From Amphiscolops sp. MND2022 (taxonomy: Eukaryota), in assembly GCA_964187785.1 (NCBI GenBank), contig OZ076409.1:62560001-62624000 (forward strand): a stretch of 64,000 bases of DNA. Reading direction: 5' to 3'. Both the position numbers and the translations under genes were made by a program. Of this stretch, positions 1 through 64,000 are shown in pieces (position 1 is the first letter of the stretch; each line of letters begins with the position of its first letter). The notes under the pieces are model-generated. The model had not been told where the DNA came from, did no database searches, and was given only the letters and a program-made list of their open reading frames with translations.

Positions 1-4
1 GGCA

Positions 5-12731: not shown

Positions 12732-12761
12732 TTTTGCAGTTTCTTTTTTTTCTGTAGGTTC

Positions 12762-12779
12762 AGATTGCTGACTGCGCCA
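12762..12779 (-). other. Primer-binding site of element A (tRNA-Ser-like)
   Basis: TGGCGCAGTC directly after the 5' LTR; complementary to the ...GACTGCGCCA 3' end of animal tRNA-Ser. Confidence 0.75.
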
Positions 12780-16707: not shown

Positions 16708-16719
16708 TGGTGACAGGAG
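16708..16719 (+). other. Primer-binding site of element B (tRNA-Leu-like), inside the gag coding sequence
   Basis: TGGTGACAGGAG directly after the LTR CA; resembles the Leu-type TGGTGTCAGRAG. Confidence 0.65.
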
Positions 16720-17829: not shown

Positions 17830-17839
17830 AAAAAACTAA
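17830..17839 (+). promoter_or_regulatory. -1 ribosomal frameshift site A_AAA_AAC followed by the gag stop
   Basis: The -1 frame is open into pol; identical heptamer and stop in element C. Confidence 0.85.
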
Positions 17840-20800
17840 TTTCGCCACGACTCCAAGTTTCCAACCAGATGTCAGTGCGACAATATGTCATATCTGACCC
17901 ACCAAACATTATTTATAAACAAACTCAAAACGATACCACAGGAATTCCATCGACTGTCTGGCAGCAGCAAATGGCCAACGCCCGCATGGAAACTCAACAT
18001 ATTATCCATAGCGACCACCCATACTTATATAGACGAACAAGTTACGACAACGACTCGGAAACTCACTTTCGCCCCTTACAAACTGTCGAAGATTATAACC
18101 CTCAATACTATGACCCCGAGTATGGCAAAGACCCGTACTGGGACGAAGAACTATATGACAAAACCAATTTACAATTTCGAAACGAAGATTACCCTCCAAC
18201 TGACGACGAGGACGACCCAGACATTGAAGACAACACACTGTCTCGGGCCCTCATTGATCCTTGGCAGCCAAATTTTGATGCAATAATACAAGGAGTAGAC
18301 GCCACTCAACAACAGGAAGGCCACAAAGCCTCTAACAGACTTTTAGATGAAACGGCCTTCCTAGATCTCTTAGTGGCCAAGGAATGAGAGCCGTCCTACG
18401 TTCCCCTTTCAACAAACCTTGGGCTCAAATTTAAAAGACGAATGCTCTATTTCCCAATGGATTTTGGAGAGTTAACCCTAGACGGCCTAATCGACACTGG
18501 AGCCCACTCCAGTGCAATACCGGAAGCAGACCTTAGAAAGATACGCCTATTGGCCCCCCAGTCGATAGTAAAAGAAGGCCCTGCTCCATCTTTTCAAATA
18601 ATGGTCGCAAATGGTGATTTAGAAAACACAAAGAGCACAGTTGAACTAAAATTTGAGGTGGGAGACATAGAATTTCATGAAATCTTCATTGTAATGGAAA
18701 AACTGTCTAGCCCCATAATTGGACTGATGTTCCTGCAGAGGAACCACACCGTCTTGGACATGCGCCAAGGTATACTCAATTTCCCTTACTTCTCGATGCA
18801 ATTAAAAACGGCCGACCACAAGTATTCAAATGTAATCGAGCCAATTCTCAACCCTGAAGGCATCACCATTCCTCCGAATGACCTTGCAGTCATCTCTATA
18901 CAGTCCCAGATCTATGCCGAAAATGCAGTCACGGGGATATTACAACCCAGTGACCTCCTCCATGAAGAAGGTGACGTTACATTTTGCGCCGCCATAGTCA
19001 CGTTGCATGAAGGGACTATGAGGATACACGTTAACAATTTTACTGACCACCCCTACACACTCAAAAAGGGGCTACATATCGCAAATTTCTCAGTGATGAC
19101 TCCTGAACAGATGAAACATGTCAGGCCAATAGACCCAGTGTCCATCTGGCATTTACTAAACGAAAATGAAGAAGACGCTATCTACTATATCAGTAGCCTC
19201 CTTAAAGCTAACCGAAATAACGACCAGTATGAACAATATTGGTTCCCGACACCTGAGAACCCAGGCGATGAAGCATCACATACGCCAATCCAGCAAAGAA
19301 TCCTCAGGGATTTAAGAAATCTAGAAGAAATAGAAAAACTCAACCCGCAAGACAATGCTGAATCTAGGCAAAAATTCCTCAGCAATTTTGACTGGAAGGA
19401 CTCAATGCTACAACAGCATGAAATCAAACAAATAGAAGCTCTCTTGGTAGAATTTCACGATATCTTCGCCCGCCACAGATTTGACATTGGCGTCAACGAG
19501 GAATTCACGGTCAAATTGACCCCGAAGAATGATTCACCTGCCTATAGCCAGAGCTTACCTACTCCGGTCAACCTCAAAGAGGACATATTGGTCGAACTGG
19601 CTTTGCTTCACAAATACGGTATTATTACAACACTACCATTCTCAAAGTACGCCAGTCCCATATTCGCCCAGAAAAAACCAAATGGCAAGTTAAGATTACT
19701 GGTTGACTTGAGGAAAATCAATAATCTCATATCCGACGATTATATCAACAACAATCACCCAGTCAGCACCTTAACGGATGCCGCGCAGCACATGGCCGGG
19801 AAAAAGCTTTTCTGTAAACTCGATTGTTCGCAAGCCTATCATTGTCTCCCAATAGCTGACCAGAGGTCTATTGAAATGCTTGCTTTCAATTTTGCTAGCA
19901 GGACCTTTGCCTATCGCAGATTGGCGCAAGGCCTCAGCAGAGCCTTATCGGCCTTCTCCAGCTTTATACGAGAGTATTTAGACCGGGTGATCAAAGCAGA
20001 TCAATGCGCCCAATATGTGGACGATATCGGCATTGCGGCCAACGATGCCGAACATCTCATAACAAACCTCAGGGCTACCTTCCAATGTATCAGAGAAGCC
20101 GGACTCAAACTGTCCATGCACAAGTGCCACTTTGGCACTACCGAAATTGATTTTCTTGGGAGAACCATCACCCCTGAGGGTGTCAAACCCCAAAAGGAAA
20201 GAATCACCAACTTCTTGGAAAAGACGAAATTTCCAAAGTCCAAGAAGGCCTTACAGCGTTACCTTGGCTTCCTCAATTACTACAGGAATTATATACCAAG
20301 ACTATCTGAAAAACTCGTTCCCTTCTTCCAATTGCTCAAAAAGGACGAGAAGGTACTAGTGACGCAAGAGTTGGTTGAACAATTTAATGAAATCAACCGA
20401 GACTTAGATAGATGTAGTCAACTGGCGCTGAAACAACCTCTGCCGAACAAACAGCTCGTCCTGATGACCGATGCAAGTTTTACAGCAGCCGGTTACGCCA
20501 TATTGACCGAAGACGACCCAAATCAAAAACACACTTCCGTTAAAAAGTCCTATGCGCCGATTGCATACGGATCAAAAACTTTCACGCCTTCTCAGCTTAA
20601 AATGTCAATATATGCAAAGGAATTCCTAGCTATATATTATGCATTTAAGGAATTTGGACACATTTTCTGGGGAACACCTCAACCTGTGATTATACTCACA
20701 GACAACAAATCGGTCACGAGGTTCTTCCAGACCAAGATCGTTCCACCGCCACTCTGGAATGCTTGTGACTTTGTCATTCAATTCAACTTCATTATAGCTC

Positions 20801-22938
20801 ACATTCCAGGCAAGAATAACACAGCGGCAGATTATCTGTCTCGTATGGAAATGGACCCTACTGAAAAGTTGGTCCTGAAAATACGAGAAGACGTAGATAC
20901 TAGACCGATCGAAGTAAATGTCCAATCAGCCGGCGTGTCAGAAGAAGAACAAATTTTCTTCACCGAGGAGGATAATGAAACAGAAGAACAGATTTGGGAA
21001 CGGAAAAAACAATCCAAAAAGGGACTCATGATCCCTGAGACAATAATCCACATTGACGCCATATCCGAAAATACAATAGAAGAAATTACCAATTTCACTC
21101 AAAAATTGCGACGAACTAATCAGATACTGCTCGAACAGTCTAAAGATCCCATCTTGCTCCAATTAAAAGCAAAAATTCAGAAGGAAGAATACTCTGAAGA
21201 AATCTTGCAACAGGATACTCGGTACAAGTACTACTTGAACAACATGGACCGAATAGTCCTTAAGGACGAAATCGTGACAAGGCAGTACTATGACGAAACT
21301 GGACAGATCAAATACCATCAAATTCTGTTACCGAAACACCTAGTTCAAGAATTATTACAAGCAATACATGGCACGGCACATCGACATCCAGGCATCTCTA
21401 AAATGCTGCAAGAAATTCGCCAAAAGTACTACTACCCAGGAATAGCAAAACTTGTCAAAAAATGGGTAGATGGCTGTGAAATATGTGCCAGAGACAAACG
21501 GGTCCCTAATGCTGTAATTACCCCAGAATTACTGGATTTGCCTGAATGGGACCTTGGTCCAGAAGACGCCATGCAAATTGACCTATTACCAAATTTACCG
21601 ACTAGTGGAGGATACCAAACGGTGATGACGGCAATAGATGTATTCTCAAGATACTTGTTCGCCTACCCGCTAATTGAGGCTACAGCCGCAAATGTGACCA
21701 AGGTGATAATTGATATAATGACGAAGCATTCATATTTGCCGACAACTCTCATCACAGACAAGGGCTCCGCATTTACTTCAACAATTCTAGCAGAAATCAC
21801 CAAAATTCTGGGAATAACACTTAGATGCGCTACTACCAAACATCCGCAAACGATCGGCAAACTTGAGAGGACACACGCCTCTTTAAAAACCAACCTGAAG
21901 ATGGCCTCAGGGGAATATCGTCGTCAATGGCACAAATATTTACCATTAGCAGTGCTCAACTATAACACTACTTATCACGCTAGTATTGGTTGTGAGCCTA
22001 GCAAAGTCTTCCATGGCCGAATCCCCTACAATGTCCTTGATCATAAATTAGGAAATAATCCTAATAAAAATTTCCTACCGACAACTGAATTTGCAGAAGA
22101 ATTACAGCAGAGGACGCAAATCCTCATTGATCAGACAAAAAAGAATATTATGCAGTCGTATTTAAAGTACAAGGAGTACTACGACCGCAAGGCCAAAGCG
22201 GCTCCGCTACAAGAGAAAGACTACTGTTTTGTTCTTCAACCGAAAGCGGATAGTCAAGGCTCTAAAATACCATTTAGGGACTTCCGATGGATTGGTTCCT
22301 TTGTCGTCCAAAAAACCTTACCAAATAACAATTATATAGTGCGTCGTTTAAATACGAATAAAACGCAGATCTTGCACCGGATCAGGCTCAAAAAATTTGT
22401 TCCAAACACCCCATTAGAGGACAAATTTAAAGAAGAGAAATTACAGCCTGATGAGGAGATAGTAATACCGCAAGATGATTTGTATACCATCTCATGGGAA
22501 GCGGACTTTGAGTACGAGCTATTCGAGCCGAAGACAAATGACTGGCCACACACGGCCACGCGTCTGCCACAGGACGCCGCGAACGGAGAAGTCGACTATT
22601 ACGTCACCGAGAATGAAAGCAGCAGCGTAAACGAAAGCGAGCGCAGCAGCGAAAGAAGAAATGACAATGACGTCAGCGAGAACGAAATAAGGCCGAGATC
22701 GGCCACCAGCCGTGATGCGCCGTCCCCTCTGCATGAATCGCCTAGTAGGACGGAAAATGAAAATGACGTCACTAATGAATTAAATGATGACGGAAACATT
22801 CCAAAAAGGGCCGCAGATATTACCGTGCCCGGAATATCGGAAAACGAAAGAAATGAGGAAAATTCTAGTCCTAGAGGAGGGAAATATAATCGTCGACCTA
22901 ACCCTACCCCCAACTTTACTGATGAATACAGATATTAG
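17830..22938 (+). pseudogene. pol: Pol of element B (N-terminal extension, PR, dUTPase-like fold, RT, RH, IN); single in-frame TGA at 18385-18387
   Basis: LIDTGA, YVDDI, TDASF, H..AHRHPG..CEIC, QIDL/TDKG/KLER. The TGA aligns with a Gly codon in element C. Confidence 0.95.
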
Positions 22939-23198
22939 CCAGATATGTAAATTAATGTCCCAACCGCCACTCAGACTGACAAATGACCTTTTTTACTTGG
23001 GACTACTCTGACTCTAATATATATACAAAGAAACAGAAAACGTGGACTCAACGTCCACAAATACAAAACGAGTCATGAAATACTGATTTAGCAATATAAA
23101 ATAGACTGCGAAGAAATAAACAATTTCAGAAACTGCAAGTGAAACAGAAAACTATAAATACACAGCAACAACTAAGAACAAATGTACACTATGTACAT

Positions 23199-26100
23199 TT
23201 AATGTTTACTAGAACCCTGCTGCAGCTCTTTAACGGTCTTCTCTATTTCCAAAGAAGGGATATTGCCAAAGTGGGCTAACTTGGAGGACTTCCCAGGAGA
23301 ACAGAACGGATTACCCACTTCACTTGCTTCAGAAGGCAAATCGAAATGGGCCTTCTTGACCCCCTCAGTATCAGTCCCGTGAATTTTGTGGGCTGCCAGA
23401 AGTTCCTTATGTATGGAGATCTGCCCAAATGAATCCACATGGGACCAAGGGTCCCCTGAGACATTGCCAGACGAGAATTTGGCATTCAAAAGATGGTAGC
23501 GCGTGAGAGCTGCTTCAGTAACACTGTAGGGAATGGCTCCGGGGACATGAGCTAAATATGACTGTGCCGGAAACAAAACATCTGATAGACGACAAAACGA
23601 ATCAGAGGAGTCCATATTGTGAAATTTGATGGCCGGCAACGGAACGCTAGCCTCAGTAAGACACATGCAGCTGAGGCGGAAAAGATGGAATAGGTGTGGA
23701 CGGGCGGTCAATGCAGGCATCCCGATCAGGAAGGCAGTCACATCGTGCACCAGCTCAGGGGAATTCATCAAGCTAGGGCAGGCATTGCGGAAATCGTCGA
23801 TGAATCCCACGTACTCATCACGGTAATCGGACTCAGAGTCCGCAGACACCCACCAGCTGGAACGTGTCAAACAACGAGGTAAAACAGAATAGGGCTTGCT
23901 CCATGGGCTGCGTTGACAGCACAGTCAAATCAAAAGCAGCCATCCCTCTCACAATATGGGCTGTAAGGCGAATATCGCCCAGGAGCGATTCGAGGATGTT
24001 GACGATGAAGGAGCGGGCCTGGCTAGCGAACATTTCCTTCATGTTTTTGGCTAGTTTCTCGAACGCCTGCGCTTGGTCCGACTTGGAGCTCAACTCCTTC
24101 TTGGCCTTCTGTTGACAAGCTTGGTCAATGTCTGTTTTTAACTTCAGTCGCAACAAGAAGTCCCGGCTGGAAAGTTGCCGTACCCCGTCTAATTGCAGTT
24201 GCAAAAGCCCAGACCAATCAGTGTCCGCGGGGGTGTGCTTGGGTAACAGGGCCCGTTGACATAATCTCCGTATGTATCGGCAGAGCTCTCCAAAGGTGAA
24301 AAATCCTGAGTCCCGTCGCTTGATGAGACTCCGTTCGAAGCACTTGGTGTCTAAACGGTCAAAAGACCCATTAGGCATACTATAGCCCAGTGCCGATTAA
24401 GGCCTATGGTTTTTGTTTGACAAACATGATGGAATGTGGGATATGTAAACGATCAAAAATTGTCATCAAAACTTGAAGGGAATATGGAAACAGAACTAAC
24501 AATCGCGGACTAGCCGTCCGAAGAATTCAACCTTCAGAGGAAACAGGTCGTCAGACAGAATGGTCCATTCCAAGCTCTGGGGCTGAAGCAAAACACGTAC
24601 CACTCTATAGAGCCGAAATGAAGACAAATAGGATCAATGTACTTTGCAGGACGATTACAAACTGGCAGGGAACTGCAAAAATGGAGCTGGGAGATACTAA
24701 CTTTTCCTTTGACTCCTTGCATGGCGTAGGATGGGGCTCTGCTGGTGAGGTAATCCAGAATGGCTTTCCAGTGCTGTATTAGCTCCGAGCAAATTGCAGG
24801 AATGTTACGTAGCTCAAAGGTGGAAGCTTCTATTGCCTATAATGGCATACAAACCATAAGGACCTATTTGAGGGTGAAAATTATACAGGGAGCAAAAGGT
24901 AGCCTACCTTTGTCAGCTCAGGCGATTCCAACGTCCAGGGCTCTGTCAAAATGCCGCTGAAGAACACGATCAAATATCGCAATTGTGAGAAAAAATCCAT
25001 TGGCCCAAAGACACTTCCTCCTTCTTTGTACATCAAGGCCTGCAGAGACAGCACGTCGAACCGAAATGGGTACTGGACCCCGCGTGAGAATAAACCACAA
25101 TTGTCCAAGGTCCGAACCAGAGAAGCGGGACAACCGGACACACTCACGAGGCCAGGCTTGAAAGAGATGACTGAAAGGAGTCGAGACAGTCCCGTAATGA
25201 AGTTGGAGGGAAACCCGGCAACCAAAGGACATCGAAACAACGGGACCCGTACCAAGGTGTTCTCTTTCCAAAAACGGACTGACATAGTTTGATTTCTTCC
25301 GGTTGCTTCAACTTCAAGGGCATACATGTCGTTCAGAGCAATGTGGTGAGACAGATCCTCAATGGCACAGGTAAAGATGTGATGAGATATCACCTAAACC
25401 AAAATGAAAGATCTTGTTAGCTATGGAAAAGCAGAACCTCATTTCAACCACCAAAAGAAAGAGACTTACGGTCATTGTGGCTGAACTCCAATCAAAAGGG
25501 GAGAACTGCTCTTTGTGGTTCATGTATTCCCCTACTTGGGACCACAGTGTTTGTAGCAGGGAGATGTTGCCATCGTAGGGAACAAAACTCCCAACGAGAG
25601 CTATTTGAACGCTGGCACGCTGGTCCTCTGTAGTCTGCTGTCCTTCCGAATTGGCCAAATATTCATCATAAAAGGGGTACCTCTCCCCCACGTCGACGAG
25701 TGGTGCATTTTCAAAGAGGGGTTTCTCTCGCTCAAGTTCCAAAGGAGTCAAGATTCGTCCGTCTTTTCCTCGGACCTGATGTCGAGTGATGCCAGTCACT
25801 TTATCTGTCACGCTTAAGTGTTCAAAGCGCCATCTCTGGTCTTTCCTCAGATGAGCCTCGCCTTGATAATGTCTGATGATTTCCCGCGCCCCTTTTGTCT
25901 TGATGGAAACATTGGCCTTACAAATTTGGCAATAGAACTTGTGTTGATTGTGGGAAGGATCCAAAGGCCCAGTCACGAAAGTTTTAGTCCATTTGATTCC
26001 TTTGAAGTAGGACTCCTTCATAACTTTCCCTGTTCGTCCGGACACCTTCTGGCGTTTTCGTGCTGGTTTAGTTGGGGTCTTGTTTCCTGTGGATTTGGGA

Positions 26101-27200
26101 AATAATGCGGCCAATGGGGCATAATCCTCGGCGCTGTACCCACTACCAGGACTTGTTGGCAACATTGGAGTAGCAGTTCTGGTCGGTTGAGATTGTGGTC
26201 TGAAGCTAGGCGAAGTTGGCGAGTAATTGTGCTCGATATGGAAATCTAAACTATCTAGAGCGTCATCTGAGTTGAGGGCACCACTTGTATAACTGCCGCT
26301 TGCACAGTCTTCTCCGCTGCTTTCTCCTTCAGAGCTAGATTGTTGTCCAGGGCCTGGAGTGCCGGCACGCCTTACATGGCGACAACGCTCTTTTGAGATG
26401 ACTTTTCCGTCAGCGGCTTGAAGGAGCAGGGATTTCATCAAATGGAATGATGAGAGGAGTGACTCGTCCGAGATGGTGCGGAGGACCGTATGCATCTGCC
26501 CTTCACTCAGGGCAATGACAGGTTGGCTAACGGGAATATTGATGGGTTTATTCTCCGTGAAGCATTTGCGTAAAGCTGCTCGCCCGGTGATGGAAAGTTG
26601 CCTGGGTGTAGCGGTAGCTTTGCTTGTGCTGGGTGGTTCATCTAGCAAATCGTCGCTGCTTGAATTCCCCCTCTTTGTTCCAGCGTCATCTCCTGAGGAT
26701 GGCGAGGGGACTGTGACGAAAATGTTGTTGGCGCCTTGTAGAGTAGTACCACTAACCCCTGATCCGTCAAGCAATTCCCCGAACTCGCTCGTGTCGGTAG
26801 AGTTTGGGCCCTGAACGAAGTGTCCAGGGGTATCCTCTAAATCCTCTCCTCCCAAATTGGTCTCTTCTACTGCATCTGTTGTCAGGGGAGGGCTGATCTC
26901 CATGAGGTCGGAAACTGACTCTTTTTGGGACAGTACATTATTTAGCTCGGCTTCAATTTGGTCAGCACTATTGGGAAGTGACTCGGAGGACTCGTTGTCT
27001 CTCTGGACAATGGTAGCCACGGTCCGCTCAGCGTAAGCACTCAGGCTTTCGGCATTGGACCCACTTGAATTCGACGAGGGAGATCGTCCAGTAGGGGCAT
27101 TTTCATTTGGAACAGCTTCTTTGGGGATTTCTGTCGCTGTTTGATTTTCGGTTGTTTCCTTGGTTGGGTTTCCAGGAGTTGTATCTTCATTGGACGACAT
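23199..27200 (-). CDS. Antisense 5-exon accessory gene (about 1190 aa) derived from a hAT transposase lacking catalytic residues; one frameshift near 23855
   Basis: Exons 27200-25470, 25393-24908, 24836-24702, 24582-24501 and 24350-23199 are joined in frame by four GT-AG introns. BED-like finger FYCQICK..RHYQGEAH; homologous C-terminus in element C. Confidence 0.8.
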
Positions 27201-28508
27201 GTCTAAATAGAAACAAATGAAGGTTAGCGGTGAACTTCCTGTATGAACCAATATTCCGCGTATGAAAGTCTTCCGGAAGCAGACTACGTTGAACACTTGT
27301 GAACACTTGTGTTATTTGGACAGGAAGTACGTGAATGGAATGAGAGCTCTGATCAAGCATTAATTTCAATTCAAAAAATATATTGGAACAAAAGGAAACT
27401 CAAGATCAACCGACTTACTTGGATTTTGATGTAGGAAGATGTTGAAGTTGTGTTGCGTGCAGATGGAAGCGGACGGGATGGCAGGGAGGACAGCTCTGGA
27501 CAAGTAGTTTGGCGATTGATGTCCACGAAGACACGGTGGCCAATTAAAATCTATGACGTTGGAAAACGCTGAGAAATTGGATTTCCTTGAGAGGAAGAAG
27601 AAGAAGGGGCAAAGAAGGATTGTGTTGGCTGAGAATGGCCTGAAGAGGGGCTAGAGGTCGTCTTTCCGAGGACAATCCAAAAATCCCACAAATGAGAAGA
27701 AAACGTAAAGGCAAATGCAACTAAATACGACTTGTGGACTAAAGCTAACTATGGATTAAATACGATGAAGAGTAAATGTGGTGGATAAATACAAGTAATA
27801 CAAAGGAGAAAAGAGTAATACAAATGGAATTGAGATGTAAAAGAATTTGAAGAGAATTGGCGATGTGACAATACGTCAAAGTTGGAGTTCGTGGCTATAC
27901 AGTTTGGTGTCAAATTTACAATTATGTACAATTCAAGTTATTATGTGGATATAGTCTGCCAGCAATATCTACATTATTTCATCTTATTTTGAAGAAAATT
28001 TCGTCATTCTACGAATTATTTCATGATTTTACCATTTCTTTATTTATTTTCAAGGTCATTTTATAATGTTCCTCATATGGATTCATGGCCTTGAAAACCC
28101 ATTTTGAGTTGAGAGAGAAATTACTGCTTTCCTATTGGCTATCTAGAACTAAGGCGGACGGCATGGCCTTCAGCTATATATTCACCCACTTGAAATTTTC
28201 AAGTAGTTCATGAGTGTTAATAAACACTCAAAGATGCTATTGATGGCTACTCGCCGCTCAGGAGAGCGGTAAAGATTATTAGGTGTCAACAAACGGGTGT
28301 CGGCTTGTCATCAAAAACATTGTGGCGTTGTTATTGAAGAATTTCCAAGGAGAGAGACGAGAAACCCGGGAAATCCACCAAACAAAGTCTGAAGGAAAAT
28401 CCGCTTGAAAATATTTCATTCAGACTTTTCTCTACTGCAAGAACTAGTTGGCTCTTGGAAATTGTTACTTTCAAAATTGCGAAGAAAATAATAAAAGAAA
28501 GATTTGAA

Positions 28509-29342
28509 ATGGACCAGCAAGAGTTATTTCCGGAAAGCACCTTATTTCCTATGGACTTCCAAGGCGCGGCACCGGGGGATGGTATAATTTACATCTCGAG
28601 CGATGAATCAATGGAGTGTCTAAGTACGAGTTCGGTGGAAGACCTGGACGACTTGTCAGAACCGGAAGACGACGAAGTCGCACTTTTGGCCCGATGTATA
28701 GAGAGGCAGATGGAAATTCCATCTACAAGCAAAGCAATCCCGGTTCCTGATAACGACACTGTTAAATACAAGAGGAAATGGACACCCAGGCCAATGCCCA
28801 CTCCAGAACCTACATTCAATGCTGGTTATTTTGACTTGGGCATGGGAAGGGGGCCAGTCCCGAGAGACAGCCGCCAGAAGAACAATCACCCGATTAATGT
28901 GTGCAGACAGTTGATACCGATGGTAGATACCCCGCTTTCGCCGCCACCGCAGGACAAATATCCAATGTACGACGAGCAAAACCCGGTGGGACAAACAGTA
29001 CTACTCAGCGAACAAGGGATGCAGAATTACTCCCATTTCAAAATGGCAGATGGAAGTCTTACACCGTACATAACAGGATGTACAGATTGCCTTGTGTGCG
29101 GCAAATCGGTGGAGCAGATTCAGGATGAGGCTGTGATTGACTATCTTCACAAGACGGCAGTTTACGGGGAACTACCAGAGCAATTCAACGCTAGGAGACT
29201 CGCTTTCCTGGAGGGAATGAAAGTCGGCTCTTTTATGTTGATTCCAGGGGGAGTGTCCCAGGCGGCCGCCTGTGATGGGAATCTGTATTCAATAAGCCAC
29301 AGCTACCAAAGAGCCCTGCCGAATACCCTCCCAATAAATTAA
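28509..29342 (+). CDS. Accessory ORF (277 aa from first ATG), acidic/Pro-rich with CTDCLVC cluster; reads through the PPT into the 3' LTR
   Basis: Open frame; the last 29 codons are conserved with synonymous changes and the same stop position in the element C LTR. Confidence 0.8.
   Translation: MDQQELFPESTLFPMDFQGAAPGDGIIYISSDESMECLSTSSVEDLDDLSEPEDDEVALLARCIERQMEIPSTSKAIPVPDNDTVKYKRKWTPRPMPTPEPTFNAGYFDLGMGRGPVPRDSRQKNNHPINVCRQLIPMVDTPLSPPPQDKYPMYDEQNPVGQTVLLSEQGMQNYSHFKMADGSLTPYITGCTDCLVCGKSVEQIQDEAVIDYLHKTAVYGELPEQFNARRLAFLEGMKVGSFMLIPGGVSQAAACDGNLYSISHSYQRALPNTLPIN
29246..29253 (+). other. Polypurine tract of element B
   Basis: AGGGGGAG abutting the TG of the 3' LTR. Confidence 0.8.
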
Positions 29343-30782
29343 AACTTGTTCGGAAAGTAATATTTCGATTGCTTAGTATTAGTTGATTTTATACTCAATG
29401 TAAAATGTTAGATGCTGTTACTATTCATATGTATATTAATGTACGGTGAATTTGAAATTGGACACCAAGGCGTACAGGCAAAGGAAACGAGTTCAAATGT
29501 TTTCTTGCCTGTCGCCTTGGACAAAGCATCCAATTTGAAATCAACCAATCAGAGAGCAGTATTTAGTTATGTACATGTACAGTTGCTATTAAACCAATGT
29601 GGCGGTATTAGTACTTGCGCCGTACTTGGCTTTCATTCTCACGGCTTGGAAATAAATAAAGGACAGCGTGTCCACTTTGACACAAGCCGACAATGCTGTT
29701 ATTTTAAATAGTTGAAAGCTGCTCTATTAGTTGCTATAATAAGACAGCGTGGATACTTGACCATTCCTGTACCTTGAAAGTACAGAAATTAAAATCTTGA
29801 TGCTTACTATTTTAGATACATTCTAGCTAATATGGCTAGAAAAGTCATGTTATAAAACATGATACATGAATTGTTGCTTTTACATGTTAATATATGTAAT
29901 TCTTGGCTGTTATTGTCATTGTAGCCATGGAGGCCGTATTAATATTCAGTCACCGCTAGCCCTTTGAAGTATATATTTAGTGTGTTGATGACATCACGGT
30001 GCTATTTTTAGCCGTTATGTTCTAAAAATAGATGCATGACACCCTGAAATTAGATCATCACCCCCGCCCTAACTATAAATACCCAGGACTAGCTGTCCTC
30101 AGGGACACAATTTGACAAGCGATATTATTATCAGTTTCACCTTTTTGATAATACTCAGATACAAATTATTAACCGTTCAGTTGTTAATAACCGATTACTA
30201 GAATAATTTAAATATTACCTCTAGTACAATCATTTATGCCTTCCACAAGAAGACAGAAAGCCAAGGCAAGAAAGTCTAGAGAAATGGACATGATGTCCGA
30301 TATAGACAACTTGGACGTAATGTTAGGTAATGGGAGTGAAAATCCTATTGAGAAAGAATTAGCAGATGCAATCGAACAGTCCTCTTTCCAGGGAGACTAC
30401 GAAGGAATTGAGTACCAAAGGAACAATTATAACGTTGTACAGGAAAATGAGCCAATGAGGCACGATGAAGTTAGACAGTCCTTCGAAACTTTTACAAATG
30501 AATTCAACCTCAGATTGTCTCAAGAAATGGATTCCATGATGTCCATGGTCCATAACCAGATAAACAGGGCAATTAGCACTGCTATATCAGAAAGGGTGAT
30601 CCCGGAGATCCAAAACATTGTGAGTTCAATGTCATCTTCAGGAAATAGGGACACTGAGGCCAGTATGTCCCCAGGTAGTCAAGAAAATAGGGAAAGTTCA
30701 TCCGGGTTGAAAACTAAAATAACGAAAAAGGACTCACGGTCCGTAGGTGATTTGAGAGACACCACGGGGCGTGGCTCTTACA
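29254..30782 (+). repeat. 3' LTR of element B
   Basis: Direct repeat of 15179-16707. Confidence 0.95.
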
Positions 30783-55018: not shown

Positions 55019-55144
55019 AAAAACTCCAATAATGACGAGCTTTTGTAAAGACTACGGGGCCAGACTTATTAAAACAATATCAAGGAAATCTATAAATAGA
55101 CAATCGCTAAAAAGTAGTAAAGTCTCAAACTGGTCTAGCACTAC

Positions 55145-56875
55145 TGTCGCAGGCTGCCGCCTGTGACGGCACAAGGATTACAACGACGGCTGTTGGTCAG
55201 GATGTGGCCCCAGGAACTCTCCCTACCTATTAAAGTAAACTAAATCTTTCTCTCAAACTTTTACGTTGCTTATGTATTTTGTTGCCATATTACTTTAGAA
55301 AATAGCCAAAAAGGGCCGTACTGGGACGTATTCCCTTGTTACCAAAATTTAGAATCATTGCACTTGTTGATTATTTATAGTCAACCTAAGTTTTCAATGT
55401 CAACTGTATATTAGTCTGTTAACATAGATTGTGCTGTATTGTTGTATTATCAATGCAATGTAGTAATAATCAAAGATTATAGCAAGCAACTAAGAGAAAG
55501 TACGGAAACGAGTTCAAATGGACTCCTGTACTTTCTTGCCAACGTCGCTTGCGCTCAACCAATTAGCCAATCAGAGGCCTTCATCTTCGAGTGCTTTATT
55601 CTCTTTTGCCAATTACGGCCTTTGTACAATATGGACGAGTGTGCTATTAATGCCGTTCAGGCAAACGGCCTAATCCGGCTATTTAGTCTCCAATGAGTGA
55701 AGTGCTTGTAATTGATGCTAATTTCATGTAGTAGTATTTATTCAGTAGTAAGCTTTGTTGATCACGAAATACCAATTTGAAGCGCTATTTAGTACTTTGT
55801 TGTGTTACTAACAAATAGTTGCCCGATTCTGCTTTAATATAACCCTGTTGCATGAAATTTGATGTTATTGCCTTAACAGGCCTTTTGCCATTGTACCTAC
55901 GATAAGTATTTAGATCAAACAAGTTTGTTGTGCTGTCACGTGCTAAAGAACGCGTACCTGTATCAACAAATACCTGTTCGATGGAAGTATTTTGTCAAAT
56001 ATGTAAACGATGCTAGCGGTTGAATGTTTGTTCCTTTGATGTGTAATATTTGGAACGGATGACGTTCATCCCGTGACCATCAGAAATGCAGTCATATGAT
56101 ATTGTCTTAGTCAAAGAATGTGAAAAATGTGAGTGTCACTCTTTCGGGGGTATAAATACCTGTGCCTTTGAGAGAGGAGACACTTCTTAATTTACTCTCT
56201 TCTGAAAAAGACTATCATATTAGTACAAACGGTTTCACTGTTATTTTCGAGATATAATCTAATTCAATTTTATACTCGAAGTTTTCCTTATGCCTACTAC
56301 AAGAAAACAAAAGAAGACTAGAAAGTCTAGAGGGCTAGAGATTCTTTCTGATATCGAAAATCTAGACATAATGTTAGGAGGCGATCGTTACAATGGAACT
56401 GAAAGAGAAAGGAGTTTATAAAGTAACTCCGTTAGAAGGAGAGAAAGTATCATGAGCAATAATTTAGACAACGAAGGCGAAAGCTTGTTTTCAAATTGTA
56501 GAAATGATGAACCTAGGACAAGTGCCGATCTTGGCCAAAACTCAGCTGAAGCAAACTCACTAGCTGAGATAAACAGGTTGTCTAGCGAACTGAACTCTAG
56601 GATATCCCGTGAGATGGATGAAATGATGAGTAATGTCGATACGCTGATCCAAAGGGCCATTAATGAAGCTATTAGTAGTCAAGTATCGCCTCAAATACAG
56701 AATGTCATTATGGCCGGATCAGGCCGAGAGACCAGAAGGGGATGGGAAGTCCCAGTTGAGAGACCGGAAGTAAATGCCGAAGAACAGCGAATTCCAAGTG
56801 CCAAGGCCGACTGTAGAAATGAACAACATGATGGAAACCGGCCAATTGGTCAATCAAGCCGTCAAGTCCATGACA
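55145..56875 (+). repeat. Inferred 5' LTR of element C (1731 bp)
   Basis: Starts TGTCGCAGGCTGCCGCCTGTGA (cf. B TGTCCCAGGCGGCCGCCTGTGA) and ends GACA before the PBS TGGTGACAGAAG. Confidence 0.85.
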
Positions 56876-58002
56876 TGGTGACAGAAGACAACGAATCTCC
56901 ACTTCAAGTTCCCGAGTTTCTCACGGGACGAGTCTCATCCAGAAACCATCTCGACAGGTCCTATGAGGATATTAACCTTGACACGACGATCCCAGCGCAA
57001 GAGAGAAATGCTCCGGCTGCTCAAACTGACCCTATTACTCGACTAGCAGATGTCTTGACAACGATGCAGAATAGGCCGACAGCCCAACAACTCACTATAC
57101 GCCCAGTCAATTCAAACACAATGACTTTTGATGGCAAGAGTGAAAAATTCGAGCTGTTTGAGGACCTGTTCCACACGATGATCAAGATGCAACCGGAAAT
57201 GACGGAACAGATGAAAATAATTCACTTCCACTCACTGCTGAGGAAGAATGCTCTCCAAACCTTCCGGAACATCAGCTCGAGCAATAGACAGACTTTAGAG
57301 GACGTATTGGTAATATTCAGACGAAAATACGTCAAACCCGAATCACAGGCGACTGCCAAACATAAATGGCACCGTCTAGTCTTCGATCCCAACACGATGA
57401 AACTGCCAGATTTCCTTGAAGAACTAAATCAAGGGGCAGAAAAAGCATTCGGGGATCACGCGCAGAAAATGATTGACAGTTTGCTCTACGCAAAACTGCC
57501 ACCAAAACTGAAGCGGTCTGTAAACATGGCCAGACTCGAAAACGGCTCTTATGATGAAATAGTTGCTCATTTAGAGAGAGAGTTAGAACTAAATGCCCTT
57601 GAGGAATCAGACGACCTACCAATGGCCACAATGACCTCCTCGACAACAAAATCCAAGACTCCTCTAACTACTGGGCAAATGTCGGACATCACTTGCAACT
57701 ATTGCAAGGAGAAGGGCCATATGGTCAAAGACTGTGAAAAATTGAAGAAGAAAAAAGAAAAAGATGCCCAACAAGGCAAACAGACTCAGAAAAAGACGTA
57801 TCCGGAGTGTGGCACTTGTGGCAAAAAGAACCACCCGGAAGAAAGATGTTGGCAAGGTGCTGGTGCGCATCTCAAACCCAAACGCACCAGACCAGATGAC
57901 GCTAATGACGGTAAACCCAATTCAAAGGCGCAAAAACCACAAAACAAATCAACATCTTCCAACTCACAGACCTCATCTTCCAATGATGAGTCAAAAAACT
58001 AA
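56290..58002 (+). pseudogene. gag: Gag of element C, starting inside the LTR; premature TAA near 56419
   Basis: MPTTRKQKKTRKSR start is homologous to B MPSTRRQKAKARKSR; two CCHC knuckles. Confidence 0.9.
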
Positions 58003-61000
58003 CTTCGCCACGACTCCAATACAATCAACTAATATCTGTCCGACAATACATCAGATCGGACCCTCCAACGCAAACTTTCCACCAATACAACCAACAATTG
58101 ATGGGCTATCCCTCTGTTGTCTGGCAGCAGCAGATGGAAAAAGCTACCATTATTACTTACAATAATACCCATTTGTTCCAAAAACCAATTCCTGTATGGG
58201 ATCCTGATTACACATCTGCTTTCAATAGCCGATTCAGGCCCATTCCCTTGGTAGACGATTACAACCCTACCTACATAGACCCCGATTATGGGCGAGATCC
58301 CTATTGGGACACGGAACTCTACAACCAAGATCTGCTACAATTCCAATACGTCATTGATGATATCGAACTCTACAATAAATCAGCCCATGAAAATCCTCCA
58401 ATCACCCACAACAAGAAAACTAGAGCATTGATTGAAACCTGGCAAATGAATGATGGCACAAGCCATCCGGTGTTCCCAAACCCCCTGGGGACCGAGAATA
58501 CTGAAAACAGTGGTGAAATCACGCCACAATCATTATTAGATGAAAAACAATTCCAAAATGTACTCATCACCAGAGATGGTGAACCAGACTGTATACCCCT
58601 GTCAACCAACATCAACCTCAAATGCAAGAAACGCATGCTTTATTTCCCAATGGACTTTGGGGAATTGACCATAGATGGACTAATAGACACTGGGGCACTG
58701 TCCAGTGCAATACCCGAAATGGACCTCCGGAAAATCCGCCTTTTATCTCCACAATCTGTTATCCGAGAAGGTCCACCTCCGAATTTCCAAATAATGGTCG
58801 CTAATGGTCAACTGGAAACCCCTAAAAGTACCATAGAACTCAAATTTGAAGTTGGTGATATCGAGTTTCATGAGATTTTCATAGTCATGGAACACTTGAC
58901 AGGACCGATCATTGGACTAATGTTCCTGCAGAGAAACCATACAGTCCTGGACATGAGACAAGGAATCTTGAACTTCCCGTTCTTTTCAATGCAGCTAAAA
59001 ACAGCTGACCATAAATACTCAAATGTCTTAGAACCAATTCTCAATCCCATTGAGATAACCATTCCGCCAAACGATAGAGTCCTAATCAGGACCAATTCCC
59101 TACTGTACCCTGAGAATGCTGTCACTGGAATTTTGCAACCGAGCGACCTTCTACATGAGGAAGACGACATCACATTTTGCCCAGCTTTAGTCACTCTGAA
59201 TGATGGCAATATATTGATACCAGTGAACAATTTCACAGACCACCCTTATAAACTCAAAAAAGGTCTACATATTGCCAATTTTTCTGTCATGACGCCAGAA
59301 CAAATGAAGTATGTCAAACCGGTAGACCCGGCATCAACATGGCACCTCTTGCAGAATGACCAAGAGCAAGCAGCCCATTATGTCAGCAGTCTCATCAAAA
59401 CCAATAGAAATCCACAAAACTCCGAAAATTACTGGTTCCCAACTCCAGAAAACCCTGGAAATCCTGAGGAACACACACCCATACAAAAACGAATCCTACG
59501 TGAGTTACAGGCCTTACAAGAACTGGAGACACTCGACCCCACCACAGACGCAGAATCGCGTGCAAAATTCTTAGAAAACTTTGACTGGAAAGATTCCACC
59601 CTTACTCCTGAAGAGAAGGAGAAAATAGAGGAATTGTTAGTGGAATTCCATGACATCTTTGCACGACACCGATTTGATATAGGCATGAACGAGGACTTCA
59701 AGGTGAAACTGACACCAAAAGACGATTCCCCAGCCTATAGTCAAAGTCTTCCAGCTCCTATCAACTTGAAGGAAGACATCTTAGTCGAATTAGCCATGTT
59801 ACACAAATATGGCATCATTACCACCCTACCGTTCTCAAAGTATGCAAGCCCAATATTCGCCCAAAAGAAACCAAATGGGAAGCTACGACTTTTGGTTGAC
59901 TTGAGAAAAATCAACAACCTCATCTCGGATGATTATATAAACAATAATCACCCTGTTAGCACCCTGATTGATGCTGCCCAACACTTGGCAGGCAAAAAAC
60001 TGTTCTGTAAATTAGACTGTTCGCAGGCATACCACTGCCTACCAATGGCTGACCAACGCTCAATCGAAATGTTAGCTTTCAATTTTGCCAGTCGCACATT
60101 TGCCTACAGACGTTTGGCACAAGGCCTCAGTCGGTCACTATCCGCATTCTCGAGTTTCATGAGGGAATACCTCGACAAAGTCATTAAAGCGGATCAGTGC
60201 GCCCAGTATGTGGACGATATCGGCATCGCAGCCAATGATGTTAACCACCTCATAATGAACCTGAGAGCAACATTCAAATGAATTCAGGAAGCAGGCCTTA
60301 AGTTGACAATGCACAAATGCCACTTTGGTGCAAAAGAAATTGATTTCCTCGGACGGACTATTACCCCGCAAGGCGTCAAACCCCAGAAACAGAACGTGCA
60401 AAACTTTCTGGAAAAGACCAAATTCCCAAAGTCGAAAAAGGCTTTGCAACGCTACTTGGGATTCTTGAACTACTACAGGAATTATGTCCCAAGACTCTCC
60501 GAGCGCCTTGCTCCATTCTACAAGATGCTCAAAAGTGACGAAAAGGTCCTAGTATCCAAAGAATTAGTCCAATAATTCGAAGAAATCAACAAGGCACTCG
60601 ACAAATGTTGCGATTTGGCCCTACAACAGCCTATCCCGAACAAACAAATTGCACTAATGACTGACGCAAGTTTTGGTGCAGCCGGATATGCGGTCTTAAT
60701 AGAAGATGACCCGAACCAGAAATTCACGTCACTCAGAAAATCGTATGCACCAGTCGCATATGGATCCAAAACTTTCACCCCAGCGCAGATAAAGATGTCA
60801 ATTTATGCAAAAGAATTCCTTGCAATTTATTTTGCATTCAAAGAATTCGGACATATATTCTGGGGTGCGCCGAAACCGGTCATCATCCTTACGGACAACA
60901 AGGCGGTCACGAGATTTTTTCAAACGAAAATAATACCCCCAGCCCTGTGGAATGCATGTGATTATGTGATCCAGTTCAATTTTGTCATAGCGCATATCCC

Positions 61001-63229
61001 GGGGGCACAGAACACAGCAGCTGACTATTTGTCCCGATTAGAAGCAGATCCGAAGGACAAATTAGTCATGAAAATCCGTGAGGACGTACAAACTCTACCA
61101 ATTGAAATCAATGTTCAATCTGCGGGGGTATCACAGGAGGAACAAAAATTCTATACGAATGATGACGACGAGACAGAGGAACAGTATTGGGCAAGAAAAG
61201 AAGCATTCAGGAAAAATCCAATGACTGATGAGCCCACTGTTACCATAGAAACTCTGTCAACCAATTTGGTCAAACAACAACCAGACATCCAGGTCCGATT
61301 AAAGAAAACAAACCAGATAATCATCGAGCAGTCCAAAGATGCAGTTCTGCAACAATTGAAGGCAAAGCTCCTTCATGAAGATTATTCAGAAAACATACTG
61401 CACCAGGATGCCCGATATAGACATTACGCAAACAATCTGGAACGAATTGTACTAAAGGACGAAATCCTGACGAGGCAATATTTTGATGAAACAGGGAACG
61501 TAAAATACCATCAAATTTTACTCCCGCAACACCTACTTCGGGAATTGCTTCACTCCCTTCACGGGACAGCGCATAAACATCCCGGGATTTCAAAAATGTT
61601 GCAGGAAATTAGACAAAGGTACTACTACCCTAGCATGGCTAAACACGTCAAAAGGTGGGTAGAAGGGTGTGAACAATGTGCCAGAGACAAGAGAGTCCCT
61701 AACGCAACGATCACACCTGAGCTGCTCAACTTGCCCGAATGGGACCTTGGACCTGAAGACGCCATGCAGATTGACCTATTGCCGAATCTTCCCCCAAGTG
61801 GAGGATATGAAAATGTCCTAACGGCAATTGATGTTTTCTCCAGATATTTATTCGCTTATCCCCTTACAGACGCATCAGCGATCAATGTGGCAAAAGCGCT
61901 CATTGACATAATGACCAAGCATGCATATTTACCAACGACTCTTATTACTGATAAGGGTACTGCATTCACTTCTACGATTATTGCGGAGGTTACGCAAATT
62001 TTGGGCATTACACTCAAATGTGCAACGACAAAGCACCCGCAAACAATTGGGAAATTAGAGCGGACCCATGCCTCATTAAAGACAAACCTCAAAATGGCAT
62101 GTGGGGAATACCGCCGACAATGGCATAAATACTTACCATTAGCAGTACTCAATCATAATACGAGTTATCACGCCAGCATCGGTTGTGAGCCAACGAGAGT
62201 ATTCCATGGCAGAATTCCCTACAATATTTTGGATCACAAGCTTGGAAATAATCCAAACGAAAAGATCAGCCCTACAACTGAATTCGCCGAAGAAATCCAA
62301 AATCGGACGAAAACCTTGATTGACAAGACGAAACAGAACATTATGCAATCGTATATTAAATACAAAGAATACTACGATCGCAAGGCGAAAGCTGCTCCAT
62401 TGAAGGAGAATGAGTACTGTTTCGTCCTACAGCCGAAAGCGGACAATCAAGGATCAAAAATTCCATTCCGTGATTATCGATGGATTGGACCATTCATAGT
62501 CCAAAAAGTTTTACCCAATGAAAATTACATAGTTCGACGACTTAATACAAATAAAACTCAAATTTTGCATCGAATTCGCCTTAAAAGGTTTGTTCCCAAT
62601 CAACCGCTTGAGGACAATTTCCGAGAACAACGCTTCAACCAGACGAAGAAATTATCATTCCACAAGACGATTTATACGTCATAACGTGGGAAACAGACTT
62701 CGGCGAACAGCTAGTTACACGAGGCAACGAACCTATTCCGACTAGCTTGCCGAACGGCGAACGGCCGAGTATGGCAGAAAATACAAATGACGCAAACGAG
62801 AATGACGTCGATTACATAATCACGCGAGAAGGATTAAACAACGACAACGCGGTACACAGCCGGAATGACCGCTTAAGTCACGACGTAACGACAAGTAATG
62901 ACGTCACCGAAGAAGCATCGAATGACGAACCTGATTGGCCGAACGAGGCCGGTTTACCGAAAGCTCACGAAACGCATTCACCGAATACAGCAAATGACCT
63001 TCAAAAAGACAAAATCATTCTAGAAAGACCAAAAAACAAGGAAATTTTCCCACATGAAAATTTGCGAACCGAAACCGATACACAAAATTCTCCAAGAAGG
63101 GGGGATGATATTATCGTGCCCGAAATATCTGAAAACGATGCCAGAAATGAAAGTCTGAGCCCTAGAGGGGGGAAATATAACCTCAGACCTAACCCTAACC
63201 CAAACTACTCAGAAGACTACAGATATTAG
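57993..63229 (+). pseudogene. pol: Pol of element C; stops at 60279-60281 and 60573-60575, frameshift near 62635
   Basis: LIDTGA, YVDDI, TDASF and integrase motifs; colinear with element B Pol. Confidence 0.93.
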
Positions 63230-63472: not shown

Positions 63473-64000
63473 TTAGCTCTTAGAACCACCAGCAGACGAT
63501 TCACCAAGGACAGACGAAGCTCTACCCCGGGAACAACCCTTTTCCATCCGTCTCCGCTTACTATCACTGGGTGGCCTCACAGCAGGAGCATCAGGCACAG
63601 AAGAAGTATCAGCAAAAGTGGGACTTCTAAAATAGAATTCTGACCCGGAGAGAACAGAGCGATAAGAGGTGACGAGAGTCTTGTAAATTGCTGAACGGCC
63701 GAAGCTGTCTACAAAGGTCCACGGGTCGTAATCGGCAGCGAAGGCAGTCTGTCCAAACATCGAAGACAATTCGAAGAATTTCTCGAGACGAGACTCGGAA
63801 CAGCAGGCAACCAGAGAATCAGGCACTGTTGACAGATAACTTTGACAAGGCAAGATGACGTCCGCTAAACGAGACTGAAGCCCCTTTGTGTCAATCTTAC
63901 CCAAAGAAACAGGAGGATACTCGGGACTCACAGAAGTGATGCAGAGGCAACTCAGCTTGAACAGATAACAAAGATGCTCATGCGTGTGGAGAAACTCCAA
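63473..64000 (-). CDS. C-terminal part of the antisense hAT-derived accessory gene of element C
   Basis: HLCYLFKLSCLC, RLADVILPCQSYL and DPWTFVDSFG match B HLFHLFRLSCMC, RLSDVLFPAQSYL and DPWSHVDSFG. Confidence 0.85.
   Translation of the reverse strand: MEFLHTHEHLCYLFKLSCLCITSVSPEYPPVSLGKIDTKGLQSRLADVILPCQSYLSTVPDSLVACCSESRLEKFFELSSMFGQTAFAADYDPWTFVDSFGRSAIYKTLVTSYRSVLSGSEFYFRSPTFADTSSVPDAPAVRPPSDSKRRRMEKGCSRGRASSVLGESSAGGSKS

What the first reader, a model, noticed from the sequence alone, without database searches (positions are those of the whole stretch)
63473..64000. Second, divergent copy of the antisense gene shows it is maintained
It has the same position and orientation after pol, an open frame and shared blocks (HL..LF.LSC.C, RL.DV..P.QSYL..VP, DPW..VDSFG...I.K.L) despite low nucleotide similarity. 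These blocks extend beyond the recognisable hAT end, suggesting a novel conserved C-terminal domain.
Basis: partly seen in the sequence, partly recalled or inferred. Interest (0 to 1): 0.7.

Follow-up and report, generated by a model that had tools for sequence, protein, structure and literature searches.

The report
Retrotransposon keeps a disarmed DNA transposase
Two distantly related gypsy retrotransposons carry the same backwards-facing gene after pol, conserved as a protein; it is likely a captured hAT DNA transposase that has likely lost its cutting residues and would serve as the element's own DNA-binding regulator.

Summary
Observation confirmed. 63473-64000 (minus strand) is the end of the last exon of an antisense gene in a second Ty3/gypsy element. 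It is 35% identical to the gene in element 1 (15179-30782), E 7e-24, stops 244 vs 261 nt after pol, and is saturated at silent sites (pS 0.91, pN 0.46). Database relatives 95-99% identical supply the missing upstream part, and the last intron sits at the same place. Element 2's LTR also begins with the tail of the U3-overlapping ORF. The gene is a large, old family (658 hits among 50%-identity cluster representatives for exon 1), seen only in ENA records. Its layout is disordered N-terminus, BED-like CCHH finger, RNase H-like core and helical region. Two exons folded separately match the Hermes hAT transposase in order (155-263, 344-571), each weakly. The second Asp and the final Glu have no conserved counterpart. 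Best reading: a catalytically dead hAT transposase kept as a nuclear DNA-binding regulator of its own element (function untested). The 'novel C-terminal domain' is overstated: block 1 lies inside the Hermes match, block 2 likely within the hAT span, and only about 45 residues around DPW..VDSFG extend beyond. Antisense accessory genes are known in plant gypsies; a hAT-derived one was not found in ten literature searches.

The parts
63473..64000 (-). 3' end of the last exon of element 2's antisense hAT-like gene (175 codons, continues beyond the window)
55145..56875 (+). 5' LTR of element 2 (1731 nt, TG...CA), preceded by ACTAC (candidate target-site duplication, 55140-55144)
55147..55233 (+). 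Tail of the U3-overlapping ORF copied into element 2's LTR: 28 open codons starting SQAAACDG, with the stop at the same codon as in element 1
55504..55520 (+). 17-nt U3 motif identical in both elements' otherwise unalignable LTRs, about 60 nt before a shared CCAAT box; candidate cis-element
56876..56887 (+). Primer-binding site of element 2 (TGG start), lying inside the gag frame
56290..58002 (+). gag of element 2, starting inside the LTR; this copy has a stop at 56419-56421; DUF1759 and zinc-knuckle hits
57990..63229 (+). pol of element 2 (protease, RT, RNase H, integrase); this copy is broken by a stop at 60279-60281 and a frame change near 62612-62684
15179..30782 (+). Element 1: full-length Ty3/gypsy element, 15.6 kb; LTRs 15179-16707 and 29254-30782 (7 differences in 1529 nt); CCAAA duplicated on both flanks; PBS at 16708
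25470..27200 (-). Element 1 antisense gene, exon 1 (577 codons): Ser/Thr/Pro/acid-rich N-terminus, basic NLS-like patch, BED-like CCHH finger; the 5' end is uncertain
24908..25393 (-). Exon 2 (162 codons): predicted RNase H-like core matching Hermes 155-263 (weak)
24702..24836 (-). Exon 3 (45 codons; acceptor position inferred)
   Evidence: homologous to P0098 and P0323
24501..24582 (-). Exon 4 (82 nt)
   Evidence: homologous to P0098, P0100 and P0328
23199..24350 (-). Exon 5 (last exon): helical region matching Hermes 344-571 (weak) plus the conserved C-terminal blocks; this copy has a frame break near 23850
28509..29342 (+). Sense ORF (277 aa) divergent from the antisense gene across 1.3 kb and ending inside U3; no Pfam hit; 39-member cluster

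Best explanation
This gypsy lineage carries a conserved five-exon antisense gene that likely descends from a hAT DNA transposase, is predicted to be catalytically dead, and would act as a nuclear DNA-binding regulator that helps its own element be transcribed. SHOWN: same place and orientation in two elements saturated at silent sites; protein-level constraint; shared intron positions; a conserved CCHH finger; no conserved acidic residue at two of three expected catalytic sites; antisense pieces on the same contigs as this element's LTR ORF elsewhere. INFERRED: (1) A hAT transposon once inserted backwards after pol. It lost its ends and catalytic residues, and the gene was kept. (2) Its GT-AG introns survive copying because they face against the genomic RNA and are not spliced out before reverse transcription. 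(3) It is transcribed from the 1.3-kb region shared with the divergent U3-ending ORF, or from the 3' LTR. (4) The finger binds short motifs in the element, for which the 17-nt U3 motif is a candidate, and the dead transposase body supplies multimerisation. (5) The effect is activation or protection from silencing, as shown for plant transposase-derived regulators.
For: Constraint. Family size: 658 representatives with E<=0.001 for exon 1; 72, 37 and 26 hits for the other queries. The two window genes fall on either side of a branch of about 1.15 changes per site, with many subfamilies and short tips (quick tree of 71 of 75 rows). Introns: all four in element 1 are GT-AG, 71-150 nt. The read-through residue at the exon-1 donor is V in 25 of 25 proteins that reach it (of 150 examined), and at the exon-2 donor in 17 of 19 (of 24). 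The residue before the last acceptor fits YAG in 28 of 28 rows. Three 97%-identical relatives of element 2's gene read through the last intron into an exon-4 homologue. Finger: C 30, C 31, H 32, H 33 of 34 rows, with W-x3-F upstream; this fits the BED signature Cx2CxnHx3-5[H/C] (PMC3606216, passages). hAT: 24 of 30 ESM Atlas hits belong to the PF05699 set, best score 0.93. The last exon matches Hermes 344-571 (Z 6.3, rmsd 4.1, 168 aligned, the longest row). Exon 2 matches Hermes 155-263 (Z 5.1, rmsd 3.8, 94 aligned) and has Foldseek's highest probability, 0.89. The order and spacing agree with Hermes. Dead: the end of strand 4 is S-G-C in 24 of 24 rows with no acid in columns 81-88. The position after the one matched to Hermes 571 is L or Y in 71 of 74 rows. 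D180, D248 and E572 are needed by Hermes (PMC2533014, passages). Linkage: 4 of 13 other contigs with element 1's LTR ORF also hold a listed antisense piece, against 0 for 45 control contigs. Precedent: transposases activate cognate copies and lose DDE on becoming regulators (bioRxiv 10.64898/2026.08.24.746577, abstract and passages).
Against: No sequence-level proof of hAT ancestry: 0 of 75 last-exon members and 0 of 24 exon-2 members hit a hAT Pfam family, and profile searches of PDB sequences found nothing relevant. The finger hits zf-C2H2_ZN292 (13 of 34), not zf-BED. Every structural score is in the range unrelated folds reach. Hermes ranks 6th behind generic helical bundles for the last exon, Foldseek gave nothing for it, and for exon 2 Hermes ties with glucokinase on a model of mean pLDDT 46. 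In the wide search the top exon-2 hit was the P-element transposase and Hermes was not among the 50 rows. The Atlas hit shares 157 features, under the 170 typical of true family members, and exon 2 got no usable Atlas hit. Catalytic positions are placed from alignment end-points and recalled motifs, not residue-level superposition, and a Glu is kept near the first Asp (19 of 21). No function, expression or binding was tested. The LTRs show no repeated short motifs above shuffles. The protein evolves 3-4 times faster than pol (pN 0.46 vs 0.13-0.14), both window elements are broken copies, and element 1's own gene has a frame break. vertebrate ZBEDs keep DDE (PMC3606216), so loss of DDE does not by itself indicate a regulator.
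Confidence: 0.47

Rival explanations
1. hAT-derived and dead, but it restrains the element: a repressor of the LTR, or a source of antisense RNA, that limits copy number (like HTLV-1 HBZ).
For: The convergent antisense unit ends about 250 nt from the pol stop in both elements. Antisense regulation is discussed for plant elements and retroviruses (PMC7264820, main text read). The same anatomy fits a repressor.
Against: An RNA-only role would not conserve about 1190 codons across saturated silent sites. The faster evolution than pol fits conflict with the host at least as well.
Confidence: 0.17
2. hAT-derived targeting or tethering factor: it binds host DNA or chromatin and guides the integrase, or aids nuclear entry of the pre-integration complex.
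For: It has a DNA-binding finger, basic NLS-like patches at both ends, and a retained transposase body. This role is proposed for plant antisense ORFs (PMC7264820).
Against: The flanks of the two insertions (CCAAA, ACTAC) share no evident sequence (only n=2). Nothing links the protein to integrase.
Confidence: 0.13
3. Not hAT-derived: a captured host gene or another transposase type (P/Kolobok-like), with chance fold resemblance to Hermes.
For: No Pfam or PDB sequence hit. All Z scores are middling, and the P-element transposase tops one list.
Against: Three separate parts point to hAT in the right order: the CCHH finger, Hermes 155-263 and Hermes 344-571. A sequence-feature method independently returns the hAT C-terminal family.
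Confidence: 0.13
4. A passive nested hAT transposon riding in the element.
For: Nested insertions are common (established knowledge), and element 1's copy is broken.
Against: It has the same position in two lineages with saturated silent sites, shows constraint, has lost catalytic residues family-wide, and no inverted repeat brackets the gene among the 25 longest of 105 pairs.
Confidence: 0.04
5. Still an enzyme: a nuclease or strand-transfer activity using displaced acidic residues, for example acting on element cDNA.
For: The whole core is kept. Conserved acids exist elsewhere: E25 and D111 in exon 2, D273, D283 and D328 in the last exon.
Against: There is no acid at strand 4 and none conserved at the expected Glu. 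The element has its own integrase.
Confidence: 0.06

Closest known systems
Plant Retand/Tat gypsy antisense accessory ORFs (TRP28/PF04195; maize Grande gene23, rice RIRE2), and fungal Boty
   Same: A conserved protein gene antisense between pol and the 3' LTR. Own internal promoter shown for Grande; nuclear or regulatory role proposed (PMC7264820, main text; PMC11963269, passages).
   Different: No PF04195 hit. Their origin is stated as unknown and a transposon-insertion origin as unsupported (PMC7264820), whereas this one has a whole-transposase layout. It has four introns and a divergent partner ORF ending in U3, and the host is probably not a plant (inferred).
hAT transposases (Hermes)
   Same: CCHH finger, then RNase H-like core, then helical insertion region, collinear with Hermes 155-263 and 344-571.
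   Different: Second Asp and final Glu not conserved; no terminal inverted repeats found; long disordered N-terminus and a short C-terminal extension; carried by an LTR element.
Domesticated hAT genes (ZBED family, DAYSLEEPER)
   Same: Transposase-derived proteins kept as DNA-binding regulators (PMC3606216, passages; DAYSLEEPER, search listing only).
   Different: Those are single-locus host genes, and ZBEDs keep DDE. Here the domesticating host is another transposon and the gene is in hundreds of copies.
Transposon-encoded regulators TnpA (Spm) and VANC (MuDR)
   Same: Element-encoded accessory regulators; TnpA derives from a transposase (bioRxiv 10.64898/2026.08.24.746577; PMC13547354, passages).
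   Different: They are plant DNA transposons regulating their own class. Their function is demonstrated; here it is only inferred and no sequence link was tested.
HTLV-1 HBZ and other retroviral antisense proteins
   Same: Antisense gene near the 3' end with a nuclear regulatory role (PMC11963269, passage).
   Different: Unrelated small bZIP-type protein (recalled); retrovirus, not gypsy.

Membership tests
Ty3/gypsy LTR retrotransposon (carrier) | pol order protease-RT-RNase H-integrase | tested here: met
   Pfam hits in that order in both elements
Ty3/gypsy LTR retrotransposon (carrier) | Paired TG...CA LTRs, short target-site duplication, PBS after the 5' LTR | tested here: met
   Element 1: both LTRs, CCAAA duplication, PBS. 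Element 2: 5' LTR and PBS only
Ty3/gypsy LTR retrotransposon (carrier) | 3' LTR and second ACTAC for element 2 | not testable with these tools
   The window ends at 64000 and no genome is held
hAT transposase | N-terminal BED-type finger Cx2CxnHx3-5[H/C] | tested here: met
   C-x2-C-x16-H-x5-H conserved in 30-33 of 34 rows. The pattern is met, but Pfam zf-BED itself is not hit
hAT transposase | RNase H-like catalytic fold | tested here: inconclusive
   Low-confidence model with helix-3 strands-helix-strand-helix order; Hermes 155-263 at Z 5.1, tied with kinases
hAT transposase | Helical insertion domain and C-terminal hATC region (PF05699) | tested here: inconclusive
   Hermes 344-571 at Z 6.3, 168 aligned; Atlas PF05699 set 0.93; no Pfam hit in 75 members
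hAT transposase | Catalytic D, D, E triad | tested here: not met
   Glu near the first site (19 of 21); S-G-C at the second (24 of 24); L or Y at the third (71 of 74). Positions placed from alignment end-points and recalled motifs
hAT transposon (mobile unit) | Terminal inverted repeats and 8-bp duplication around the gene | tested here: not met
   No bracketing pair among the 25 longest of 105 inverted repeats in 22900-29300; element 1 only
hAT transposase | Multimerisation through an intertwined dimerisation domain | not testable with these tools
   The domain is split by intron 1 and spliced sequences cannot be submitted
Retand-type antisense ORF | Antisense ORF between pol and the 3' LTR in most copies | tested here: met
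   2 of 2 elements of this lineage in the window; contig co-occurrence elsewhere
Retand-type antisense ORF | TRP28 domain (PF04195) | tested here: not met
   No hit in the window ORFs or in 75, 24 and 34 alignment members
Transposon-encoded anti-silencing factor (TnpA/VANC-like function) | Sequence-specific binding to and activation of cognate copies | not testable with these tools
   Needs expression and chromatin experiments

The most novel reading that the evidence does not exclude
A retrotransposon lineage domesticated an entire DNA transposase, introns included, as its own sequence-specific transcription or anti-silencing factor. It sits in a two-gene divergent cassette with a partner that ends inside U3, and this cassette underlies a radiation of hundreds of subfamilies in one probably animal genome lineage. 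That would be a class II-to-class I gene capture giving a non-plant counterpart of TnpA/VANC.
Probability: 0.3. Interest if true: 0.8.

Novelty: new variant of a known kind. Interest (0 to 1): 0.58.

Why it matters
The origin and role of antisense accessory genes in LTR retrotransposons are stated open questions (PMC7264820). This case appears to give a traceable origin: a transposon domesticating another transposon's enzyme. It has hundreds of natural variants, each paired with its own LTR, so co-evolution of the finger with a binding motif can be tested directly. If the gene proves to be an activator or anti-silencer, it would extend element-encoded counter-defence from plant DNA transposons to retrotransposons, and might help explain how such elements fill a genome.

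Tried and rejected
Extending beyond 64000: no genome is held. Locus searches found no relatives in metagenome contigs, viral contigs or prokaryote genomes, so only proteins without context were available. Sequencing runs: one small-share run, no RNA holder listed. Its contigs covered 16 of 30 bins, with no loose end past 64000 among those shown. Homodimer prediction for the finger region: no verdict. Foldseek on the last exon gave no match with E<=0.001, and Hermes was not among the 50 rows of the wide exon-2 search. Pfam and PDB-sequence searches were blank for the antisense exons. Repeated short motifs in the LTRs or the intergenic region were not above shuffles. A module swap between elements was considered because the antisense gene is more diverged than pol. 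It is not needed, since silent sites are saturated in both (pS 0.84-0.91), but it is not excluded. The break at about 23850 in element 1 was considered as an intron and rejected: relatives at 96% identity read straight through. Troyka was considered and dropped: the passages read mention no antisense gene, and these elements look like ordinary gypsies. Three look-ups of earlier scan findings returned nothing. The host organism was not identified.

Full report
SETTING. The window is LTR-retrotransposon-rich eukaryotic DNA, 32-52% GC by kilobase. No genome is held and the host was not identified; an animal is my inference from the element types and from Atlas taxa, which do not give a range. Two related Ty3/gypsy elements matter. 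Element 1 is full length (15179-30782): 1529-nt LTRs differing at 7 sites, CCAAA duplicated on both sides, PBS at 16708. Element 2 starts at 55145 after ACTAC, has its PBS at 56876 and runs off the window. Their pol proteins are 76-81% identical with saturated silent sites (pS 0.84-0.88). Both are broken copies, but relatives have long open pol (1676 and 1699 aa) and gag frames (560 aa).

63473-64000 is open on the minus strand and matches element 1's antisense ORF at 40/114 identities, E 7e-24. The stops lie 244 and 261 nt from the pol stops. Identity by codon position is 45/61/24% over 109 codons, with pN 0.46 and pS 0.91. Of 1000 neutral simulations, 9 stayed open and none reached the score. 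Part of the position-2 excess arises from choosing a protein alignment (simulated gap 0.24 against observed 0.37), so the open frame and the score are the stronger tests. One contig of run X1 covers 63778-63928 with 2 differences.

Rest of the gene: P0073 (411 aa, 97% identical, 125-member cluster) supplies 236 aa upstream. Of 15 listed members, 14 align over all 175 window residues at 95-99%. Introns: element 1's gene has five exons (27200-25470, 25393-24908, 24836-24702, 24582-24501, 24350-23199) with GT-AG introns of 76, 71, 119 and 150 nt, and a frame break near 23850 that 96%-identical relatives lack. Three of the 15 element-2 relatives read through an in-frame last intron into an exon-4 homologue at the same junction. 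Read-through residues mark the exon-1 donor in 25 of 25 proteins that reach it (of 150) and the exon-2 donor in 17 of 19 (of 24), and fit the last acceptor in 28 of 28 rows. U3 ORF: element 2's LTR begins with 28 open codons starting SQAAACDG and stopping at the same codon as in element 1. The finger in element 2 itself and the second ACTAC could not be seen.

A LARGE FAMILY THAT TRAVELS WITH THE ELEMENT. Exon 1 has 658 hits among 50%-identity cluster representatives (sources not given by that tool). All sourced hits in the other searches are from ENA and unnamed. Alignment A1 used 37 of 37 hits and 38 of 72 (longer ones); A3 used the window plus 23 of 26; A4 the window plus 33 of 150 listed. 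A quick tree of 71 rows separates the two window genes by about 1.15 changes per site, with many subfamilies. The two-clade shape partly reflects my two queries. Genomic context was not available, but contig lengths serve as fingerprints: 4 of 13 other contigs bearing element 1's LTR ORF also bear a listed antisense piece and 3 bear the U3 ORF, against 0 of 45 control contigs. Only 15 members per cluster were listed, equal length was taken as same contig, and the internal gag cluster overlapped in only 1 of its contigs.

WHAT THE PROTEIN IS. Sequence libraries are blank. Four weaker lines converge on hAT. (a) Exon 1 ends with W-x3-F...C-x2-C-x16-H-x5-H, each ligand kept in 30-33 of 34 rows. 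This fits the BED signature (PMC3606216, passages), though Pfam names zf-C2H2_ZN292 (13 of 34). (b) Exon 2 folds, at low confidence (pLDDT 46), as helix, three strands, helix, strand, helix. It aligns to Hermes 155-263 (Z 5.1, rmsd 3.8, 94 aligned), tied with glucokinase. Foldseek gives Hermes its highest probability (0.89, E 0.11), and the wide search puts the P-element transposase first (Z 5.1). (c) The last exon aligns to Hermes 344-571 (Z 6.3, rmsd 4.1, 168 aligned), rank 6 but the longest row; the other top rows cover only the first 155 residues. (d) ESM features return the PF05699 set for 24 of 30 hits, best 0.93, 157 shared features. No line is significant alone. The collinear order is what persuades me, at about 0.8. 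At the catalytic sites (Hermes D180, D248, E572; PMC2533014, passages) the family has Glu (19 of 21), invariant S-G-C (24 of 24) and L/Y (71 of 74). The CxxH-like position appears to read F-R-F-D (motif recalled). I predict it cannot cut DNA. No inverted repeats bracket the gene.

THE C-TERMINAL BLOCKS. The Hermes match ends at P0073 residue 263, so block 1 (245-256) is inside it. Hermes has 612 residues (PMC10368747, Introduction), leaving 41 after 571. Block 2 (280-296) falls in that span and likely is the diverged hAT C-terminal segment (inferred; not aligned). Block 3 (328-345; D328 in 75 of 75, W330 and F336 in 73 of 74) lies beyond it. It forms predicted helices with pLDDT under 50, followed by a variable Ser/Lys/Arg-rich tail. 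It is a real conserved extension of about 45 residues. Whether it is a domain, or is shared with some invertebrate hATs, is untested.

HOW IT LIKELY WORKS. An antisense gene keeps its introns through reverse transcription because they face away from the genomic RNA (established logic, inferred here). A transposase that has lost its ends and catalytic residues but keeps a finger, basic NLS-like patches and its body for a very long time is best read as a DNA-binding regulator. BED fingers bind short repeats and multimerisation gathers them (PMC10368747, Introduction and passages). Transposases can activate cognate copies and lose DDE when co-opted (bioRxiv 10.64898/2026.08.24.746577, abstract and passages). 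Selection on a gene carried by a selfish element favours effects that aid that element, so I commit to activator or anti-silencer (0.47). The rivals are repressor (0.17), targeting factor (0.13), non-hAT origin (0.13), residual enzyme (0.06) and passenger (0.04). A candidate target is a 17-nt motif identical in both otherwise unalignable U3 regions. It occurs exactly 3 times, once in each LTR seen, and lies ahead of a shared CCAAT box. It could equally be a host-factor site.

NOVELTY. Antisense accessory ORFs after pol are known in plant and fungal gypsies, with origin and function stated as unknown (PMC7264820, parts 1-2 of 3 read, covering the main text; PMC11963269, passages). Animal LTR elements capture other extra ORFs such as GDSL esterases and exonucleases (PMC5408684 and PMC6431247, passages). 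Ten full-text searches combined terms such as gypsy/LTR retrotransposon, antisense, hAT/DDE/inactive transposase, BED zinc finger, additional ORF and anti-silencing. None listed a paper describing a hAT-derived antisense gene in a gypsy element. Most results were seen only as listings, no supplements were read, and subscription papers, Repbase and Dfam were not searchable, so prior annotation is possible. Verdict: a real, selectively maintained accessory gene and a new variant of a known kind; interest 0.58.

Noticed in passing
window 2-2503 (+): 833-aa open frame, 5' open, about 50% GC, no Pfam hit. By eye it has a degenerate SGNH/GDSL-like stretch near aa 185-245 (motif recalled). It may be an accessory gene of another element; GDSL ORFs are known in rotifer LTR elements (PMC5408684).
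   Followed up: no
window 28509-29342 (+) and 55147-55233: Partner ORF (277 aa, 39-member cluster) divergent from the antisense gene and ending inside U3. It has an IIYISSDE SUMO-interaction-like motif (recalled consensus) and a small Cys cluster; no Pfam hit.
   Followed up: partly
window 16161-16707 and 56290-56875: gag starts about 550-590 nt inside the 5' LTR and reads through the PBS; relative P0413 (560 aa) shows the continuous frame. About 180-195 gag codons are thus duplicated in each LTR.
   Followed up: partly
window 24583-24701 (-), intron 3: Intron 3 is present in element 1 and apparently in P0100, but exons 3 and 4 are contiguous in P0098 and P0323: a precise intron gain or loss within the family.
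   Followed up: partly
window 27201-27260 (-): A branch-point-like CTAAC, pyrimidine tract and AG lie directly before the antisense ATG. Relatives share a conserved translated motif here. This suggests an upstream exon, trans-splicing or a short N-terminal extension.
   Followed up: no
window 15408-15424, 29483-29499, 55504-55520: 17-nt U3 motif identical between the two LTR families, followed by a shared CCAAT box; a shared TATA-like 10-mer lies at 15999 and 56151.
   Followed up: partly
window 6953-12984 (-): Small gypsy element of another family, with 205-nt LTRs at 99.5% and no accessory region.
   Followed up: no
window 44989-53670: Decayed relative of the small gypsy (186-nt LTR-like repeats at 80%) with an internal 2.2-kb tandem duplication at 98% (46266-48510 and 48512-50774).
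   Followed up: no
window 33437, 41073, 43333, 46165, 54070; inverted copies near 33231, 53835: Dispersed 50-90 nt repeat family in both orientations, possibly MITE or SINE ends.
   Followed up: no
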